From IMG/VR virus record IMGVR_UViG_2778261506_000002: a DNA stretch of 18,236 nucleotides; one strand, written 5' to 3'. Source of the stretch: a virus. Its lineage: Duplodnaviria > Heunggongvirae > Uroviricota > Caudoviricetes. The translations under genes were made by a program, and so were the position numbers. Each line of letters starts with the position of its first letter. Positions within the stretch are counted from its first letter, which is position 1. This document shows, in pieces, positions 11,976-18,236 of this stretch. A model generated the notes under the pieces. The model had not been told where the DNA came from and searched no databases. It saw only the letters and a program-made list of their open reading frames with translations.

Positions 11976-12187
11976 CAGAACCTCGCCAGCCGGTACCCGG
12001 GATGCCCCCGTCGTCGTGTAATCAGAGCCGCAAGGCGGCGCTCCCACTCCTGCCGTCCCTGCCGGATCTCAGATAAGTTTTCCATGGTCATCTGCTGACC
12101 ATTAAAAGTGACGGATTTTCCGTCCAGCACCGCCATTTCAGCTTCCGTATAACGCTGAATCATGGCTTCAATATCATTCTGATTCAT
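11975..12187 (-). CDS. Head-tail joining protein (lambda gpW-like)
   Basis: 70 aa from ATG 12187, which has GGAGG 6 nt upstream and a 4-nt overlap with the terminase stop. Size and position match lambda gpW (68 aa). Confidence 0.65.
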   Translation of the reverse strand: MNQNDIEAMIQRYTEAEMAVLDGKSVTFNGQQMTMENLSEIRQGRQEWERRLAALITRRRGHPGYRLARF

Positions 12188-14283
12188 AACCATCCTCCGG
12201 AAGTCAGCCAGGGGTTAACATCGTCAGTTACTGTTTTCTTCCGTTTTTGTTTTTTAACAGGCGTGGATACCGGCTCCGGTGAGGGTGACGGTTCGGTACT
12301 GTCCGGGACACACTCCAGCCAGGTTTCCCGGCTCGCCCACTCCGGTGCATCCGGCCAGCGGATCTTTTCGTATCCATGCAGAATGACCAGCGCCTCGGCA
12401 TACACCATCAGGTCAAAAGCTTCGTTGGCACCGCGACCCGGCTTACTCCATTTCCCGTCACTGCTCCGCTCTTCATACGTCAGTTCGTCGTAAAACCAGC
12501 TCCCCAGCCAGTCAGGGAAATACACATAGCCTGGACCTGGCGAGTCACGCCATAACGCGTTATTCACCCGGTCTTTCAGGGCATCCGTCTGAAGAAGCCA
12601 GAGCGGCACATCACCTGCGGCCTGCGCCCGGCGGCCCGTTCGTCCGGTGTTATCAGGGAATGTACGGCTGATCAGTTTTGCGCGCCGGATGCTGTCGCCC
12701 TTAAACAGGTAAATACGTTTACCAAGGCCATCACGACGGCAACGACGCCAGAATTTATAGGCATTATCAGTGACCCCGTCTTCACCGCCGGAATCCACCG
12801 CCATTGCCATCAGTCGCATTTGTTGAGAAGGATCGGAGGCCAGCGGCCAGCTTTTATGAAAAACATCCGTCAGCAGGACATCCCAGTCTTCCGGATAGCT
12901 GGCCGGATCAATTCGCTGGCTCTCCCCGTCGCAGTCACTGCGCAATGACTGCGTGATGTTGTAACGATCAATAATCCAGCGTTCGCCACGGCTGCCATAG
13001 CCCGTTACCTGAACCACAAAACGGCGATGACGTCCCGCCTGCACATCCACTGTCGCCACAAGGAAATTAACGCCATCCGGAACACTGCGGGAAGGAACTG
13101 GCTCTGCCCGCTGCTCAAGCAGTTCACTTTTTCGTTGCTCCATGCTGGCACGAGGAAGATAAGGCAATCCCCAGTCGGTGTTGATAACCGCCCTGAGTGT
13201 TTCTTCGCTTCCTGTCGCTTCATACTCCTGTTCTGCAGTCAGTAATTTGTAAACCAGTTGCGCCCAGGTCTGATACGCAGCAGCTGGCCCTTCCATCCAG
13301 AAACTGGCGATACGGGAGCGGCGCGGTTCACCGGAAACGTTGCCGTTACGATCAATGACCTGACCTTCACGTAACCAGACTCCTGCACTATTGAGCTCAC
13401 GCTTTTTCTCCGCAGTGATAATGCCGCTGCAGTGCGGGCAAAGTAGATACGCCGCCTCACTGGCTTTAAAGGGATCCGGTTCATTACGGTAGCCGGTCAT
13501 GGCATCCATAGCTGGCTGAAAATATTCACCGCAGTGCGGACATGGCCAGTACCAGCGGCGGCGGTCACCACGATTGTAAAGGGAAAGAATACCAGTCGTC
13601 GGTGGCGCTTCATGAGGCGACTTACGTCGCCATTTGCTGTCGCAGATGTCACGTCCCGGCGAGCTCTCCACCAGAGTCATCCCGGCGGACATAAATGTGG
13701 TGGTACGTTTTGAGGCCAGGGAGAAACCATCACCCTCGCTGTCGATATTCTCCGGAAAACGGTCGTAATCGGTTAAGGCGACAAACCGGTAATCCGACGA
13801 CGACATAATGTTGACCGAGGGCCAACCAATTTTAAGGAACGAGCCATCCCTGAACGTCTTATCATGGACATTATTGTCGTTACGACGTGGACTCATTCTT
13901 TTCTTTACCGCCGCACTGCTTCTGAACGTTCTGTCGAGGCGCTTTTTAGAATGCTCGCGGGCCTTATCTTCGGTCATCTGCACAACGAGCATGTCCGAAG
14001 GATCGCAAACGATGGTATAGACAATCCATCCATCGATCAGACCAATGGTCTTCCCTGTTCGCGCAGGACCAACAAAAATCACCGCATCGTATTCACGCGA
14101 TGCCAGGCAGTTCATGGGCTCAATGATGTAGGGTGTCAGTTCAGGATCCCATGGCACCGAGTTACCAGCCCCCTTGGGAACACGCATGAATTTTTTAACA
14201 GCCTCCGAAATCGGCATGCGACGTGGTGGGGAAAATCCTGCCGATATGTCCCTTCCCAAATTTCGGGCTGATGAAAAACCCAT
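12184..14283 (-). CDS. Terminase large subunit (lambda gpA family)
   Basis: 699 aa. Walker A-like VGPARTGKT near the N-terminus, a CPHCG...CPHC zinc-ribbon-like motif and acidic nuclease-type C-terminal half. GGAGG lies 4 nt before the ATG. Confidence 0.9.
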   Translation of the reverse strand: MGFSSARNLGRDISAGFSPPRRMPISEAVKKFMRVPKGAGNSVPWDPELTPYIIEPMNCLASREYDAVIFVGPARTGKTIGLIDGWIVYTIVCDPSDMLVVQMTEDKAREHSKKRLDRTFRSSAAVKKRMSPRRNDNNVHDKTFRDGSFLKIGWPSVNIMSSSDYRFVALTDYDRFPENIDSEGDGFSLASKRTTTFMSAGMTLVESSPGRDICDSKWRRKSPHEAPPTTGILSLYNRGDRRRWYWPCPHCGEYFQPAMDAMTGYRNEPDPFKASEAAYLLCPHCSGIITAEKKRELNSAGVWLREGQVIDRNGNVSGEPRRSRIASFWMEGPAAAYQTWAQLVYKLLTAEQEYEATGSEETLRAVINTDWGLPYLPRASMEQRKSELLEQRAEPVPSRSVPDGVNFLVATVDVQAGRHRRFVVQVTGYGSRGERWIIDRYNITQSLRSDCDGESQRIDPASYPEDWDVLLTDVFHKSWPLASDPSQQMRLMAMAVDSGGEDGVTDNAYKFWRRCRRDGLGKRIYLFKGDSIRRAKLISRTFPDNTGRTGRRAQAAGDVPLWLLQTDALKDRVNNALWRDSPGPGYVYFPDWLGSWFYDELTYEERSSDGKWSKPGRGANEAFDLMVYAEALVILHGYEKIRWPDAPEWASRETWLECVPDSTEPSPSPEPVSTPVKKQKRKKTVTDDVNPWLTSGGWL

Positions 14284-14291
14284 TATTCCTC

Positions 14292-14819
14292 CTAGAGACT
14301 CTCTCCTTCCTCATCAGGAATTAATTCAGCAGCACAAGCCTCGTAGGATTTTTCCTGAAGAGTGTATCGCAGGTCATCAATGGCCTGCTGTACAACGCCG
14401 ACGGCCTGAGGAGTCAGGGCGCAATCGCGTTCAAGAACATCCGGAATTGTCTCCAGAACCTGGACGACAGCCTTTCTCATGGACGAATAGACGATGACTA
14501 CTTCATCAACTGGGATGAGTTTTCGCTGCTCCTTTTCCAGCTTGATCCTTTCATTTTCAGACTGGTACCAGTCTTTTCTCTCTTTCGGCTCCATACGGGA
14601 TGGATCATGAACAGAGTCTGCTGCCTCATGCTTCACACTAAACAGGGCGGGCCCGACATGCTGCAGGGCGTAAACGGGGTTCCCCCTGACAGTCGCAGCC
14701 ACAGGAGTGTTGGCCGCGAGGAGCCGTTTTTTTACTGTGTCCCGGTGAAGCCCAAAGGCCTCGGCGATTTTAAAAACACTCCAGTAATAAGCATCACCGA
14801 TCCCGCTCACATTTGACAT
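14292..14819 (-). CDS. Terminase small subunit (N-terminal helix-turn-helix, Nu1-like role)
   Basis: Immediately upstream of the large subunit. N-terminal SVFKIAEAFGLHRDTVKKRL is HTH-like. ATG at 14819 has GGAG 6 nt upstream; the track start 14831 has none. About 175 aa. Confidence 0.7.
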   Translation of the reverse strand: MSNVSGIGDAYYWSVFKIAEAFGLHRDTVKKRLLAANTPVAATVRGNPVYALQHVGPALFSVKHEAADSVHDPSRMEPKERKDWYQSENERIKLEKEQRKLIPVDEVVIVYSSMRKAVVQVLETIPDVLERDCALTPQAVGVVQQAIDDLRYTLQEKSYEACAAELIPDEEGESL

Positions 14820-14835
14820 AAGCAACTCCATCTGG

Positions 14836-14921
14836 CAGGTGAAAATCAGGTTTATTTATATATTTCAATTAATTGCAAACTGGTCTAATGACAGGGAGAA
14901 AAAATATTGTACAGGTGAAAA
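14836..14921 (-). repeat. Candidate cosB: three direct copies of TTTTC(A/T)CC(C)TG between cosN and the small terminase start
   Basis: Plus-strand CAGGTGAAAA at 14836-14845 and 14912-14921, with a degenerate CAGGGAGAAAA at 14892-14902. Spacing from the putative cosN resembles lambda R-site placement. An IHF-like TAATTTATTGATA is at 14939-14951. Confidence 0.35.
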
Positions 14922-15002
14922 GAGAAATAACTTTTAATTATCAATAAATTACCAAACATGCTGCCGCCGCCATGGAAATGCAAAAACTAGTCTTTTTCCG
15001 CG

Positions 15003-15014
15003 ACGCTCCCGCCC
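15003..15014 (-). other. Candidate cosN, predicted 12-nt cohesive end 5'-GGGCGGGAGCGT
   Basis: Minus strand reads GCCACG|GGGCGGGAGCGT|CGCGGAAAAAGA. From memory, lambda's cos junction is ...GTTACG|GGGCGGCGACCT|CGCGGGTTTTCGC, with identical flanks and 8 of 12 matching core bases. It is a GC island in AT-rich DNA, 184 nt upstream of the small terminase ATG (lambda: 190). Confidence 0.45.
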
Positions 15015-15043
15015 CGTGGCAGGGGCCCCCACCGGGAGGACCC

Positions 15044-15067
15044 GACAGCCTGACAGCCTGACAGCCG
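15044..15067. repeat. Tandem 8-mer GACAGCCT x3 (third copy GACAGCCG)
   Basis: Perfect tandem array 30-64 bp on the genome-end side of the putative cosN. GCCTGACAG recurs at 15318-15326. Confidence 0.6.
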
Positions 15068-15202
15068 TGATGAGCATCTGATACAGCGCTTTACATAATG
15101 GCATAGGAATAATTCAGAAGGACATCACAGCATGCCCACACAAATTAGTGTGAGTGTCCTGTTTCTTCCTACGCACAGGACTGACGAGCATGAGGGGAAA
15201 AT

Positions 15203-15370
15203 ATGCGAACCATAAATGCCTCATCTTCAGCAATGCAACAGGCATCCGAACAGGACGATATTGTAAATTCACCTAATTACGAGGACATTGCAGTAGTTGA
15301 ATTGCAGCTCTGTATTAGCCTGACAGTGACAGAATGCGATATTGACTCTGTCACAGGTGAAATAGTTTGA
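15203..15370 (+). CDS. Hypothetical small acidic protein (55 aa); real status uncertain
   Basis: ATG at 15203 preceded by GAGGGG at 5 nt; TGA at 15368-15370. Below the track's size cutoff. An overlapping 28-codon frame from ATG 15189 also exists. Confidence 0.3.
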   Translation: MRTINASSSAMQQASEQDDIVNSPNYEDIAVVELQLCISLTVTECDIDSVTGEIV

Positions 15371-15390
15371 ATGATTAGCAGTTATGGTGC

Positions 15391-15597
15391 TCAGTCAACC
15401 ACCAGGGAATAATCCTTCGAATTCTTATCGTGCTTCACCAACGCTGCCTCAATTGCCCTGAATGCTTCCAGAGACACCTGATGTTCTATACATGCAATTA
15501 CAACATCCGGGTAACTCATAGAAATGGTGCTATTAAGCATATTTTTTACACGAATCAGATCCAACGAGAGTTCATCAGCAGATTGTTCTTTATTCAT
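15391..15597 (-). CDS. Hypothetical protein (68 aa)
   Basis: Track ORF with a true ATG at 15597 and GGAG 7 nt upstream. Low GC. No recognisable motif. Confidence 0.45.
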
Positions 15598-15897
15598 TTT
15601 GTCGCTCCATGCGTTTGCTCGTCATCTAGCGGTTAAAATATTACTTCAAATCTTACTGCATAAAAGAGGAAAAGTATGAAAGTTTGAGTACATCGACCTT
15701 ACATACATCTGTCGGTTGCATATCCCTCCTGGATGCCAGCAAGGCTCAATTTTGTTACGCAATCAACACTATTCATCAAAAACAGGCTTAATATTTGACA
15801 TAAATCATCAACAAAACACAAAGAGGTCAGACCAGATTGAAACAATAAACACGATAATGCTAACTACGCGCCATCGTATCACATGGAAGGTTTACCA

Positions 15898-16308
15898 ATG
15901 GCTCAGGCTGCCATTTTTAAAGAAATATTCGATCAAGTGCGTAAAGATTTAAACTGTGAATTATTTTATTCTGAGCTAAAACGTCACAATGTCTCACTTT
16001 ATATTTACTATTTAGCCACAGATAATATTCACATTGTGTTAGAAAACGACAACATAGTGTTAGTAAAAGGACTCAAAAAGGTTGTAAATGTTAAATTCTC
16101 CAGAAACAAACATCTTATAGAGACCTCCTATAATAAGTTGAAATCAAAAGAAATCACATTTCAACAATACAGGGAAAATCTTGCTAAAGCAGGAGTTTTC
16201 CGATGGGTTACAAATATCCAGGAACACCAAAGATATTACTATGCCTTTGATAACTCATTACTATTTACTGAAAGCATCCAGAAAACTACACAGATCTTAC
16301 CACGCTAA
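15898..16308 (+). CDS. ydfO: DUF1398-family protein (YdfO/YbcV-like)
   Basis: Track ORF 15883..16308; second ATG at 15898 has GGAAGG 7 nt upstream, giving 136 aa (the size I recall for K-12 YdfO). It occupies the position ydfO has in the Qin prophage. A stem-loop follows at 16317-16345. Family and symbol are by size and synteny only. Confidence 0.5.
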
Positions 16309-17099: not shown

Positions 17100-17306
17100 C
17101 TTCATTTTCACTTTTTTAAATCCAACGACAGACGGCTGGCATTTAAGTATTGTGAAATATTATCAAATGTAATCATCATTGATTTACAAAAGATACATTT
17201 TGCCCCGAAAGGATTCATGTCAGAAACATCAAAAGATGATGTTCTATACTGGGAACCATGACAACACGGGCATCTAAAGTGAATATGGTTTGTAATATTG
17301 TCTACC

Positions 17307-17519
17307 TCAAAGCGCCACTACATGAACAGCGGCAGGACCTTTAGGTCCGTTCTCAATACCAAATTCAACTTCCTGATTCTCAGTTAATGTTTTGAAATCG
17401 TTGCTCTGAATTGCTGAGAAATGGACAAACACATCTTTGCTGCCATCTTTCGGCGTGATGAAACCAAAACCTTTTTCAGGGTTAAACCATTTCACTAAAC
17501 CAGTCATTTTGTTAGACAT
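17307..17519 (-). CDS. cspI: Cold shock protein, CspA family (CspI/CspB-like)
   Basis: 70 aa [38 protein letters not shown]..., with the RNP1/RNP2-like cold-shock-domain motifs. A long AT-rich 5' leader is typical of csp genes. The symbol is by similarity and Qin synteny; cspB-type cannot be excluded. Confidence 0.85.
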
Positions 17520-17623
17520 AATTATTACCTTTTGAAGAAATTAGCCCTTGGGCAGAATGGTCCGAAAAAAAATATCAGAGAGAAAAACCAACAAGGAAAT
17601 CTCAAGAGGTACAAATAATAAAA

Positions 17624-17629
17624 TTATAA
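17624..17629 (-). promoter_or_regulatory. Candidate sigma70 -10 box (TGT-TATAAT) for the cspI-like gene
   Basis: Minus-strand TATAAT with an upstream TG, about 100 nt before the cspI ATG. No convincing -35 box. Not verified. Confidence 0.3.
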
Positions 17630-17884
17630 CAATGACTGCTTCAGATAAATTTGTAACAAACCAGAACACCATTAACGCATGATTAACCACCCATAGCAAG
17701 GATTACTTTTGTAAAGAAAAACACAGCAATGAAAGAATAGCTTTATTTATTAATAAAACGTGTCATTCTGATTAAGACCTTTTATCTTACCCTTAAGATT
17801 TCAGGAATTTTGGCTCATGGAAGAGTCCTTTTTATTTAAATTTTACATTCCGCGATGTAAATGTTCCGATTTAATATTACCCTA

Positions 17885-18236
<352 letters not shown>

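What the first reader, a model, noticed from the sequence alone, without database searches (positions are those of the whole stretch)
15189..15597. Convergent pair of unannotated small ORFs next to the genome end
A 55-aa acidic ORF on the plus strand (GAGGGG-N5-ATG) and a 68-aa ORF on the minus strand (GGAG-N7-ATG) converge on a 20-bp gap and have no recognisable motifs. The plus-strand ORF is below the track cutoff and contains the inverted repeat and a CAGGTGAAAT copy in its 3' end. Moron positions next to cos commonly hold host-interaction genes in lambdoid phages. These are the least explained coding candidates in the window.
Basis: seen in the sequence. Interest (0 to 1): 0.5.

Follow-up and report, generated by a model that had tools for sequence, protein, structure and literature searches.

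The report
ybcW gene plus a chance ORF
Of the two small converging reading frames beside the prophage's DNA-packaging (cos) site, the minus-strand one is the already named but uncharacterised lambda/E. coli gene ybcW (lambdap79), and the plus-strand one is most likely a chance open frame in non-coding spacer DNA, so the finding is ordinary.

Summary
ORFs of 55 aa (15203-15370, +) and 68 aa (15391-15597, -) converge on a 20-bp gap, 189-583 bp from the prophage's lambda-like cos site (cosN 15003-15014).

The 68-aa ORF is not unexplained. It is the YbcW family (phrog_657), 91% identical to phage lambda lambdap79 and K-12 DLP12 YbcW, and RefSeq annotates it here as a hypothetical protein. It behaves as a real gene:
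- no indels in 13 relatives;
- dN/dS 0.17-0.42 in the relatives about 10% diverged;
- an excess of third-codon-position changes;
- full-length homologues at 40-53% identity.

It is predicted to be an acidic three-helix bundle with no informative fold match. In lambda it lies in the late transcript and is non-essential.

It is intact only in relatives at least 99% identical. Every relative at 88-92% identity has 1-bp indels or a lost start codon. Substitutions show no codon-position bias, PGAP annotates no gene there in any RefSeq genome examined, and in lambda and DLP12 the homologous DNA is intergenic spacer between ylcI and ybcW.

The only notable spacer element is an 8-bp inverted repeat with invariant stems. 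Verdict: low interest, already known.

The parts
15391..15597 (-). ybcW / lambdap79-family gene: 68 aa, acidic (pI 4.9), predicted three-helix bundle
   Evidence: - phrog_657 match at E=5e-47 over 68/68 positions.
- RefSeq WP_001031431.1.
- 91% identical to lambda lambdap79 and K-12 YbcW.
- No indels in 13 relatives. dN/dS is 0.17-0.42 in the relatives about 10% diverged and 0.6-0.9 against lambda and DLP12, where only about 10 sites differ. Variable sites by codon position are 10/10/21.
- Full-length homologues P0199 (53-54% identity) and P0304 (39-41% identity).
- AlphaFold model has pLDDT 79.7 with helices at 4-21, 30-38 and 43-59.
15605..15608 (-). Shine-Dalgarno-like GGAG, 7 nt upstream of the ybcW ATG
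   Evidence: Read directly from the sequence.
15203..15370 (+). 55-aa ORF, judged a chance open frame rather than a gene
   Evidence: - Intact only in L005 and Tritos, both at least 99% identical.
- Broken by 1-bp indels at about 15229, 15291, 15317 and 15339 in relatives at 88-92% identity. The ATG becomes ACG in the HannyBb group.
- The database 'homologues' switch between reading frames.
- No codon-position bias: 10/11/13.
- PGAP annotates no gene there in any RefSeq genome examined.
- The single-sequence structure model is poor: pLDDT 59, pTM 0.16.
15015..15390 (.). Non-coding spacer between the right genome end (cos) and the ybcW stop codon
   Evidence: - No ORF conserved on either strand across the relatives aligned over 15150-15400.
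- 15245-15390 is homologous to the ylcI-ybcW intergenic DNA of lambda and DLP12.
15326..15354 (.). Inverted repeat GTGACAGA-N13-TCTGTCAC: conserved hairpin or palindrome of unknown role
   Evidence: - Found by the repeat search.
- 0 of 16 stem positions vary, against 5 of 13 loop positions and 25% of spacer columns.
- RNA folding energy is about -14 kcal/mol, z-score -1.4 to -3.1.
- There is no U-tract, and the terminator scan found none.
- No compensatory changes exist, so the sequence data give no covariation support.
15354..15362 (+). Third CAGGTGAAA copy, probably fortuitous
   Evidence: It is absent in HannyBb and EC1908, which share the same small terminase and at least one of the cos-side copies (two in HannyBb, one in EC1908). 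It is also altered in lambda and DLP12.
15003..15014 (-). cosN-like cohesive-end sequence (GGGCGGGAGCGT on the minus strand), marking the phage genome ends
   Evidence: The left and right ends of the phage Tritos record abut at window 15014|15015. That the overhang is 12 nt is inferred by analogy with lambda.
15037..15043 (-). cosQ-like heptamer GGGTCCT
   Evidence: It is a single copy at the equivalent position in lambda, in the other related phages and prophages whose fetched DNA reaches cos, and in the satellite-like locus L054. The cosQ identity rests on my own knowledge of lambda.

Best explanation
The interval is the cos-proximal right end of a lambda-like (Qin/DLP12-type) prophage, identical to the one in E. 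coli ATCC 25922. It holds one real gene and one spurious ORF.

**1. The minus-strand 68-aa ORF is a member of the YbcW/lambdap79 family.**
- It lies on the late-operon strand, so it is presumably transcribed as the last ORF before cos and the terminase genes (inferred from lambda).
- It has its own Shine-Dalgarno sequence.
- It encodes a small acidic three-helix bundle. The most plausible mode of action is binding another protein late in infection, not catalysis or DNA binding (inferred).
- It is dispensable for plaque formation in lambda (literature).

**2. The plus-strand 55-aa ORF is not a gene.**
- It is an open frame that happens to exist in one young lineage, inside the roughly 375-bp non-coding spacer between ybcW and cos.
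- In lambda, DLP12 and related phages the same DNA is the intergenic spacer between the convergent genes ylcI and ybcW.
- In this prophage ylcI is absent.

The conserved 8-bp inverted repeat inside the spacer is the only candidate functional element. It is most likely a 3'-end or RNA-processing hairpin for transcripts that exit ybcW, or that converge from the other side. This is inferred, not shown.
For: **Identity of the region**
- The interval is 100% identical to ATCC 25922, and PGAP annotates only the 68-aa ORF.

**ybcW family membership**
- phrog_657 match at E=5e-47.
- 91% identity to lambda p79 and K-12 YbcW. The neighbours are the same: a DUF1398 gene (ybcV/ydfO) on one side and cos plus terminase on the other.

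**Evidence that ybcW codes for protein**
- No indels in 207 bp across 13 relatives.
- dN/dS 0.17-0.42 in the relatives about 10% diverged.
- Variable columns by codon position are 10/10/21.
- Full-length homologues at 53% and 40% identity share a conserved YPDVV-ACI...VS-E-F-AIEA-L core.
- The confident helical model has pLDDT 79.7.

**Evidence that the 55-aa ORF does not code for protein**
- 1-bp indels and loss of the start codon in all 11 relatives at 88-92% identity. No alternative conserved ORF exists on either strand.
- Called proteins in the databases shift between two frames.
- No codon-position bias.
- The homologous DNA is intergenic in lambda and DLP12.
- No Pfam, NCBIfam or PADLOC hit.
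- The structure model is poor.

**Literature**
- Lambda p79 is in the PR' late transcript and is non-essential. It scored as essential by CRISPRi only through polarity on downstream genes (PMC10695390).
- In K-12, ybcW-ylcI is listed as a convergent overlapping-transcript pair (PMC12288877).
- Hha induces ybcW transcription in K-12 (PMC2408971).
Against: - The 55-aa ORF has a good Shine-Dalgarno sequence (GAGGGG-N5-ATG), and a PHROG family (phrog_4035) exists for it.
- The intact version is present in several hundred E. coli genomes that are at least 99% identical. A very young, lineage-specific micro-protein cannot be excluded from sequence alone.
- No expression data for this prophage were available.
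- The structure prediction for the 55-aa peptide used a single sequence, so its poor score is weak evidence.
- The mode of action proposed for YbcW is an inference from size, charge and fold only. Fold searches gave nothing specific.
- dN/dS against lambda and DLP12 is 0.6-0.9, but it rests on only about 10 differences.
Confidence: 0.85

Rival explanations
1. This is the first reader's view: both ORFs are real small genes, a convergent pair of cos-proximal 'moron' genes for host interaction. On this view the 55-aa acidic peptide is a young, lineage-specific protein.
For: - A good Shine-Dalgarno sequence and an ATG start.
- A phrog_4035 match at E=4e-41.
- The ORF is intact in all relatives at least 99% identical. 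The intact 55-aa form, and a 57-aa form that begins in a different frame, have both been called on many contigs (P0127 on 58 contigs, P0145 on 838).
- In lambda and DLP12 a genuine plus-strand gene, ylcI, occupies the equivalent convergent position.
Against: - Frame-disrupting 1-bp indels and a lost start codon in every relative at 88-92% identity.
- The database 'family' is a set of frame-shifting variants.
- No third-position bias.
- No plus-strand promoter-like site nearby.
- PGAP annotates no gene there in any RefSeq genome examined.
- No similarity to YlcI/YnfO or any other family.
Confidence: 0.07
2. The DNA under the 55-aa ORF is functional as nucleic acid. The invariant-stem hairpin at 15326-15354, with its flanks, would be one of three things:
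- a cis element that ends or processes ybcW or late transcripts;
- an element that mediates interference between convergent transcripts;
- a protein-binding palindrome linked to packaging.

This reading is compatible with the main explanation and adds a function to the spacer.
For: - 0 of 16 stem positions vary, against 5 of 13 loop positions and 25% of spacer columns. That would happen by chance about 1% of the time if sites were independent.
- The repeat is retained in phages with two unrelated small-terminase types, Nu1 and DUF1441, and in lambda.
- The minus-strand RNA fold has a z-score of about -3.
- K-12 ybcW-ylcI transcripts are reported to overlap (PMC12288877).
- The satellite-like homologue also has a hairpin just after its ybcW-like gene.
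Against: - There are no compensatory substitutions, hence no covariation support.
- There is no U-tract, and the terminator scan found none.
- There is no Rfam match.
- Fold stability is modest, and z-scores for the lambda versions are only -1.4.
- Other invariant runs of similar length exist in the spacer.
- Overall spacer divergence (9-12%) is not clearly lower than ybcW synonymous divergence against lambda.
- The satellite hairpin is unrelated in sequence.
Confidence: 0.3
3. YbcW is a packaging-linked accessory factor, or a phage protein sensed by a bacterial defence system, and not a generic late protein. Its constant position immediately upstream of cos would reflect a function tied to cos or terminase, or to helper-satellite competition.
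For: - The order ybcW, then cos, then small terminase is kept with two unrelated small-terminase families.
- A 40%-identical homologue sits in a satellite-like element (DUF927 primase, PerC, capsid E, HDPD), about 45 bp upstream of a lambda-like cosQ and a Nu1-like gene.
- A 2026 bioRxiv preprint on DUF4062 'NIR' NADase defence (10.64898/2026.09.04.749371) contains 'lambdap79 gene' twice and 'co-expression of lambdap79' once, together with 'escape', 'trigger' and 'activator'. I could not read its text.
Against: - Lambda p79 is non-essential (PMC10695390).
- The second distant homologue, P0199, has no cosQ-like site nearby.
- Synteny could simply reflect co-inheritance of the cos module.
- The protein is acidic, with no DNA-binding fold match.
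- What the preprint found is unknown to me.
Confidence: 0.2

Closest known systems
YbcW of the E. coli K-12 DLP12 prophage, and lambdap79 (NP_597782.1) of phage lambda (PHROG phrog_657)
   Same: - Same length, 68 aa, and 91% amino-acid identity.
- Same strand relative to the late genes.
- Same neighbours: a DUF1398 gene (ybcV/ydfO/lambdap78) upstream on the opposite strand, and cos plus terminase downstream.
- The 146 bp downstream of the stop codon are homologous, including the inverted repeat.
   Different: - Here the small terminase is DUF1441-type, not Nu1-type.
- The convergent ylcI/ynfO gene found in lambda and DLP12 is absent and replaced by unrelated spacer.
- The N-terminal 20 residues differ most between alleles: 21 of 60 nucleotide columns vary there, against 20 of 144 in the rest.
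YlcI/YnfO family (DUF3950), the genuine gene convergent with ybcW in lambda, DLP12 and Qin-type phages
   Same: It occupies the equivalent position and orientation to the 55-aa ORF: plus strand, converging on ybcW, between cos and ybcW.
   Different: - There is no sequence similarity, and the 55-aa ORF has no Pfam or NCBIfam hit.
- In phages that carry ylcI, the DNA homologous to the 55-aa ORF lies downstream of ylcI as intergenic spacer.
PHROG phrog_4035 (unknown function)
   Same: The 55-aa ORF matches the whole 55-position profile at E=4e-41.
   Different: The family appears to consist of automatically called ORFs from near-identical DNA. Across diverged relatives the frame is not maintained, so the family itself is probably not a true protein family.
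Lambda cos (cosQ-cosN-cosB) architecture
   Same: - The cohesive-end sequence GGGCGGGAGCGT followed by CGCGG resembles lambda's GGGCGGCGACCT followed by CGCGG.
- The GGGTCCT heptamer lies about 23-29 bp inside the right end, as in lambda.
   Different: - The cosB side is unrelated to lambda's and goes with a DUF1441-type small terminase.
- It carries two CAGGTGAAA copies that track the small-terminase allele.

Membership tests
YbcW / lambdap79 family (phrog_657) | Full-length sequence match to the family profile and to the named members | tested here: met
   phrog_657 at E=5e-47, 68/68 positions. 91% identity to lambda p79 and K-12 YbcW.
YbcW / lambdap79 family (phrog_657) | Genomic position between the DUF1398 gene (ybcV/ydfO/lambdap78) and cos plus terminase, on the late-gene strand | tested here: met
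   Window layout compared with lambda, DLP12, Tritos and PhiR30.
YbcW / lambdap79 family (phrog_657) | Reading frame maintained under purifying selection | tested here: met
   No indels in 13 relatives. dN/dS 0.17-0.42 in the relatives about 10% diverged. Variable sites by codon position 10/10/21.
YbcW / lambdap79 family (phrog_657) | Protein is actually made | not testable with these tools
   Only transcript-level reports for K-12 ybcW were found (PMC2408971; PMC12288877). No proteomic or Ribo-seq data were examined.
Real protein-coding gene (55-aa ORF / phrog_4035) | Start codon and frame conserved in diverged relatives | tested here: not met
   1-bp indels at about 15229, 15291, 15317 and 15339. 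ATG becomes ACG in the HannyBb group. The ORF is absent in all 11 relatives at 88-92% identity.
Real protein-coding gene (55-aa ORF / phrog_4035) | Substitution pattern biased to third codon positions | tested here: not met
   Variable columns 10/11/13 for codon positions 1/2/3.
YlcI/YnfO (DUF3950) family, considered for the 55-aa ORF | Match to the DUF3950 / YlcI-YnfO models | tested here: not met
   No Pfam or NCBIfam hit at E<=1. The YlcI ORFs of lambda and DLP12 lie outside the homologous DNA.
Moron (autonomously expressed accessory gene in a lambdoid late region) | Own promoter and own terminator flanking the gene | tested here: inconclusive
   The consensus scans found no promoter in the ydfO-ybcW intergenic region, no plus-strand promoter upstream of the 55-aa ORF, and no terminator. 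These scans are crude. K-12 reports show ybcW RNA in a cryptic prophage.
Intrinsic (Rho-independent) terminator, considered for the inverted repeat | GC-rich stem followed by a U-tract | tested here: not met
   The stem is 8 bp with 4 G-C pairs, the loop is 13 nt, and there is no T-run on either strand. The scan found 0 terminators.
Known RNA families (Rfam) | Covariance-model match in 14800-15900 | tested here: not met
   No match at E<=1. The only hit in the window is the cspA thermoregulator at 17280-17665.

The most novel reading that the evidence does not exclude
YbcW/lambdap79 would be a cos-linked accessory protein whose position immediately upstream of cosQ is functionally required.

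**Support**
- The position is kept across two unrelated small-terminase types.
- It is also kept in a capsid-encoding, satellite-like element whose homologue is only 40% identical.

**What it might do**
- It might modulate packaging or helper-satellite competition.
- It might be the phage component that activates a NADase ('NIR', DUF4062) defence system. An unread 2026 preprint that co-expresses lambdap79 hints at this.

A weaker add-on: the invariant-stem hairpin downstream may be a conserved RNA-processing or interference element shared by lambda-like phages.
Probability: 0.15. Interest if true: 0.5.

Novelty: already known. Interest (0 to 1): 0.12.

Why it matters
The finding matters little as a discovery. 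It re-finds a named but uncharacterised gene of phage lambda, together with a chance ORF.

It has two uses:
- **A clean negative.** phrog_4035 and the many 55-59-aa 'hypothetical proteins' called at this spot are probably annotation noise. The spacer between ybcW and cos should be treated as non-coding.
- **A small open question.** lambdap79/YbcW remains one of the few conserved lambda late-region ORFs with no assigned function. Its tight linkage to cos, including in a satellite-like element, gives a concrete, testable lead.

Tried and rejected
**Family and structure searches that found nothing useful**
- Pfam, NCBIfam and PADLOC gave no significant hit for either peptide.
- The PDB sequence search with a YbcW profile gave no hit at E<=10.
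- Foldseek against the PDB and BFVD gave nothing at E<=0.001.
- Rfam, in gathering and E-value modes, found nothing in the region.

**Searches for distant YbcW relatives**
- The exhaustive HMMER search and two word-indexed protein searches for YbcW returned mostly error-laden copies of lambda's 3' end. These came largely from contigs of about 3.5 kb, which I take to be the nanopore lambda control amplicon.
- Only two credible distant homologues emerged, P0199 and P0304.
- The genome-contig scan was likewise dominated by lambda contamination in unrelated taxa.

**Ideas considered and rejected**
- That the 55-aa ORF is a diverged ylcI/ynfO. There is no similarity, and ylcI lies outside the homologous DNA.
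- That the third CAGGTGAAA copy is a terminase-binding site paired with the two cos-side copies. It is not conserved in phages that share the same small terminase.
- That the AGCCTGACAG copy at 15317 relates to the tandem copies at 15047-15064. By my estimate about 0.4 ten-nucleotide repeat pairs are expected by chance in 900 bp, so this is not significant.
- That the hairpin is an intrinsic terminator. It has no U-tract.
- That the intergenic lambda mutations 'downstream of lambdap79' in PMC11666707 fall in the homologous spacer. They lie at +155 to +527, beyond it.

**Not readable**
- The preprint 10.64898/2026.09.04.749371.

Full report
**Context**

The window is 100% identical over 15100-15700 to the chromosome of E. 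coli ATCC 25922 and many other strains. It lies in a lambdoid, Qin/DLP12-like prophage. The gene order in window coordinates is:
- large terminase, GpA family, 12184-14283 (-);
- DUF1441-type small terminase, 14292-14831 (-);
- a cos region;
- the two ORFs of the finding;
- a DUF1398 gene (ydfO/ybcV-like), 15883-16308 (+);
- gnsB, ynfN, ynfR, ynfQ;
- cspI with its cspA-type thermoregulator;
- the lysis genes (Rz-like rzpQ, lysozyme, holin), which PGAP annotates beyond cspI in the identical ATCC 25922 region.

Phage Tritos is 99% identical. The two ends of its record abut at window 15014|15015. This gives a lambda-like cohesive-end sequence, GGGCGGGAGCGT followed by CGCGG on the minus strand, at 15003-15014. 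A single GGGTCCT heptamer lies at 15037-15043, at the same distance from the end as in lambda. I equate this heptamer with cosQ from my own knowledge of lambda.

**Observation**

- the 55-aa acidic plus-strand ORF at 15203-15370, with GAGGGG-N5-ATG;
- the 68-aa minus-strand ORF at 15391-15597, with GGAG-N7-ATG;
- the 20-bp gap between them;
- the inverted repeat GTGACAGA-N13-TCTGTCAC at 15326-15354;
- a CAGGTGAAA copy at 15354-15362.

Two claims need qualifying. 'Unannotated' applies only to the plus-strand ORF. 'No recognisable motifs' is true for Pfam and NCBIfam, but both ORFs hit PHROG families.

**The minus-strand ORF is ybcW/lambdap79**

It matches phrog_657 over its whole length, E=5e-47. 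It is RefSeq WP_001031431.1. It is 91% identical to lambda lambdap79 (NP_597782.1) and to YbcW of the K-12 DLP12 prophage, with the same neighbours.

I aligned 13 distinct, reliable relatives: lambda, DLP12, HannyBb, Tritos, PhiR30, an E. ruysiae prophage and seven further E. coli-type prophage copies, one of them on a contig labelled as a Veillonella MAG. In this alignment:
- the 207-bp ORF has no indel at all;
- Nei-Gojobori dN/dS is 0.17-0.42 for the alleles about 10% diverged;
- variable columns fall 10/10/21 on codon positions 1/2/3;
- in the C-terminal 48 codons the split is 5/3/12.

Two truly divergent full-length homologues exist, P0199 at 53% identity and P0304 at 40%. They keep a YPDVV-ACI...VS-E-F-AIEA-L core. 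This is a real protein-coding gene.

The AlphaFold model, built from an 11-sequence alignment, has mean pLDDT 79.7. It shows three helices at 4-21, 30-38 and 43-59, with disordered tails. The protein is acidic, pI 4.9.

No search gave an informative relative:
- the PDB sequence search found nothing;
- Foldseek against the PDB and BFVD found nothing;
- PADLOC found nothing.

**What the literature says about ybcW and p79**
- In lambda, p79 lies in the PR' late transcript and is non-essential. It scored as essential by CRISPRi only because the roadblock is polar on Nu1 through J (PMC10695390).
- In K-12, ybcW RNA is induced by Hha (PMC2408971).
- ybcW-ylcI is listed as a convergent pair with overlapping transcripts (PMC12288877).
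- A 2026 preprint on DUF4062 'NIR' NADase defence mentions the lambdap79 gene and its co-expression. I could not open it, so this is only a lead.

**The plus-strand ORF is not conserved as a frame**

The state of the ORF across the 13 relatives:
- It is intact only in the two that are at least 99% identical, L005 and Tritos.
- Five relatives carry 1-bp deletions at about 15229 and about 15291, and their start codon reads ACG: HannyBb, E. ruysiae, SCPM, UTAK6 and EC1908.
- F11 also carries the 15291 deletion, and its homology starts only at about 15266, inside the ORF.
- Lambda and DLP12 carry other indels.

Further evidence points the same way:
- No alternative ORF is conserved on either strand across 15150-15400.
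- The 40 database 'homologues' are products of whichever frame happens to be open. Several begin at the upstream ATG (15191) in another frame and shift into the 55-aa frame at different points.
- Variable columns fall 10/11/13 on the three codon positions of the frame.
- PGAP annotates no gene there in any of the eight RefSeq genomes I inspected.
- A single-sequence structure prediction is poor, pLDDT 59 and pTM 0.16. This is weak evidence on its own.

I conclude it is a chance ORF in one young lineage, with a residual probability of about 7% that it is a very recent micro-protein.

**What else is in the spacer**

About 25% of columns vary in the shared spacer, 15245-15390. This is not clearly less than at ybcW synonymous sites, so there is no general constraint.

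The inverted repeat stands out modestly:
- 0 of 16 stem positions vary, against 5 of 13 loop positions;
- it is kept in phages with both Nu1-type and DUF1441-type small terminases;
- the fold is weak, about -14 kcal/mol, z-score -1.4 to -3.1;
- there is no U-tract and no terminator call;
- there is no Rfam match;
- there are no compensatory changes to test.

I rate a nucleic-acid function, such as an RNA 3'-end or processing hairpin for converging transcripts, at about 0.3.

The CAGGTGAAA copy in the ORF is not conserved, even in phages that share this small terminase. The two copies at 14836 and 14912, on the cosB side, do track the small-terminase allele. I therefore treat the third copy as fortuitous.

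**A lead on YbcW function**

The 40%-identical homologue P0304 sits in a 10-kb, satellite-like element. The order there is DUF927 primase, PerC, capsid E, head-decoration HDPD, the ybcW-like gene, a hairpin, the sequence ACGGGTCCTTTC (identical to lambda's cosQ region), and a 111-aa Nu1-like gene. The linkage of ybcW to cos is thus kept over large divergence and in a compact mobile element. That could mean a packaging-related or helper-satellite role, or it could be hitch-hiking with the cos module. The other distant homologue, P0199, has no cosQ-like site nearby. I give this reading about 0.15-0.2.

**Verdict**

Novelty is 'already known'. Interest is low, 0.12.

Noticed in passing
window 15003-15064: The cos site is lambda-like although the small terminase is DUF1441-type, not Nu1-type. 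It has cosN-like GGGCGGGAGCGT followed by CGCGG on the minus strand, and a GGGTCCT heptamer at 15037-15043. An 8-bp tandem repeat (GCCTGACA, about 2.5 copies) follows at 15047-15064. Relatives with the same cos have only one full copy of that repeat.
   Followed up: partly
window 14836-14844 and 14912-14920: Two exact CAGGTGAAA copies lie 76 bp apart between the small-terminase start and cosN. Both are present in HannyBb and one in EC1908 (the second there reads CAGCTGAAA); these share the same or a similar small-terminase allele. Both are absent, with a wholly different cosB, in prophages carrying the WP_000373425 allele. They are candidate small-terminase binding sites.
   Followed up: partly
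L005-L041 (genome-contig hits), P0028-P0120: Most public 'homologues' of YbcW are lambda DNA in unrelated assemblies and metagenomes, for example records labelled Veillonella, Pseudomonas, Streptomyces and even a plant. Many sit on contigs of about 3.5 kb with sequencing-error variants, which fits the nanopore lambda control amplicon. This inflates the family's apparent diversity and host range.
   Followed up: partly
L054/L055 1-4860: This is a satellite-like element: DUF927 primase, PerC, a 68-aa ORF, lambda-type capsid E, HDPD decoration protein, a ybcW-like gene, a lambda-like cosQ, and a truncated 111-aa Nu1-like protein. The ybcW homologue is only 40% identical to the window's.
   Followed up: partly
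window 17280-17665 (-): Rfam cspA thermoregulator (RF01766, 112.8 bits) in the 5' leader of the prophage cspI gene, 17307-17519.
   Followed up: no
window 17997-18218 (-): A 73-aa ORF at the window edge resembles the C-terminal part of an IS1 InsB transposase, from my recollection of the sequence. That would suggest an IS element beside the prophage cold-shock gene cluster.
   Followed up: no
window 15883-16308 (+): The DUF1398 protein (ydfO/ybcV/lambdap78 family) gave a weak PADLOC hit to a type II restriction-enzyme model, E=3e-4 and 18 bits. It is the only plus-strand, moron-like gene here and would be a better 'host-interaction' candidate than the finding.
   Followed up: no
lambda +155 to +527 downstream of lambdap79 (outside the window's homologous DNA): In a lambda-E. 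coli coevolution data set, clusters of closely spaced substitutions downstream of lambdap79 look like recombination tracts across the unannotated ylcI-like ORF of lambda. Two of them were scored as lowering infection efficiency (PMC11666707).
   Followed up: partly
L002 200-394 (+), i.e. about lambda 48109-48303 on the complementary strand: Phage lambda carries an intact 64-aa YlcI/YnfO-like ORF between p79 and cos. It is not annotated in NC_001416, but PGAP annotates it as ylcI in K-12 DLP12.
   Followed up: partly
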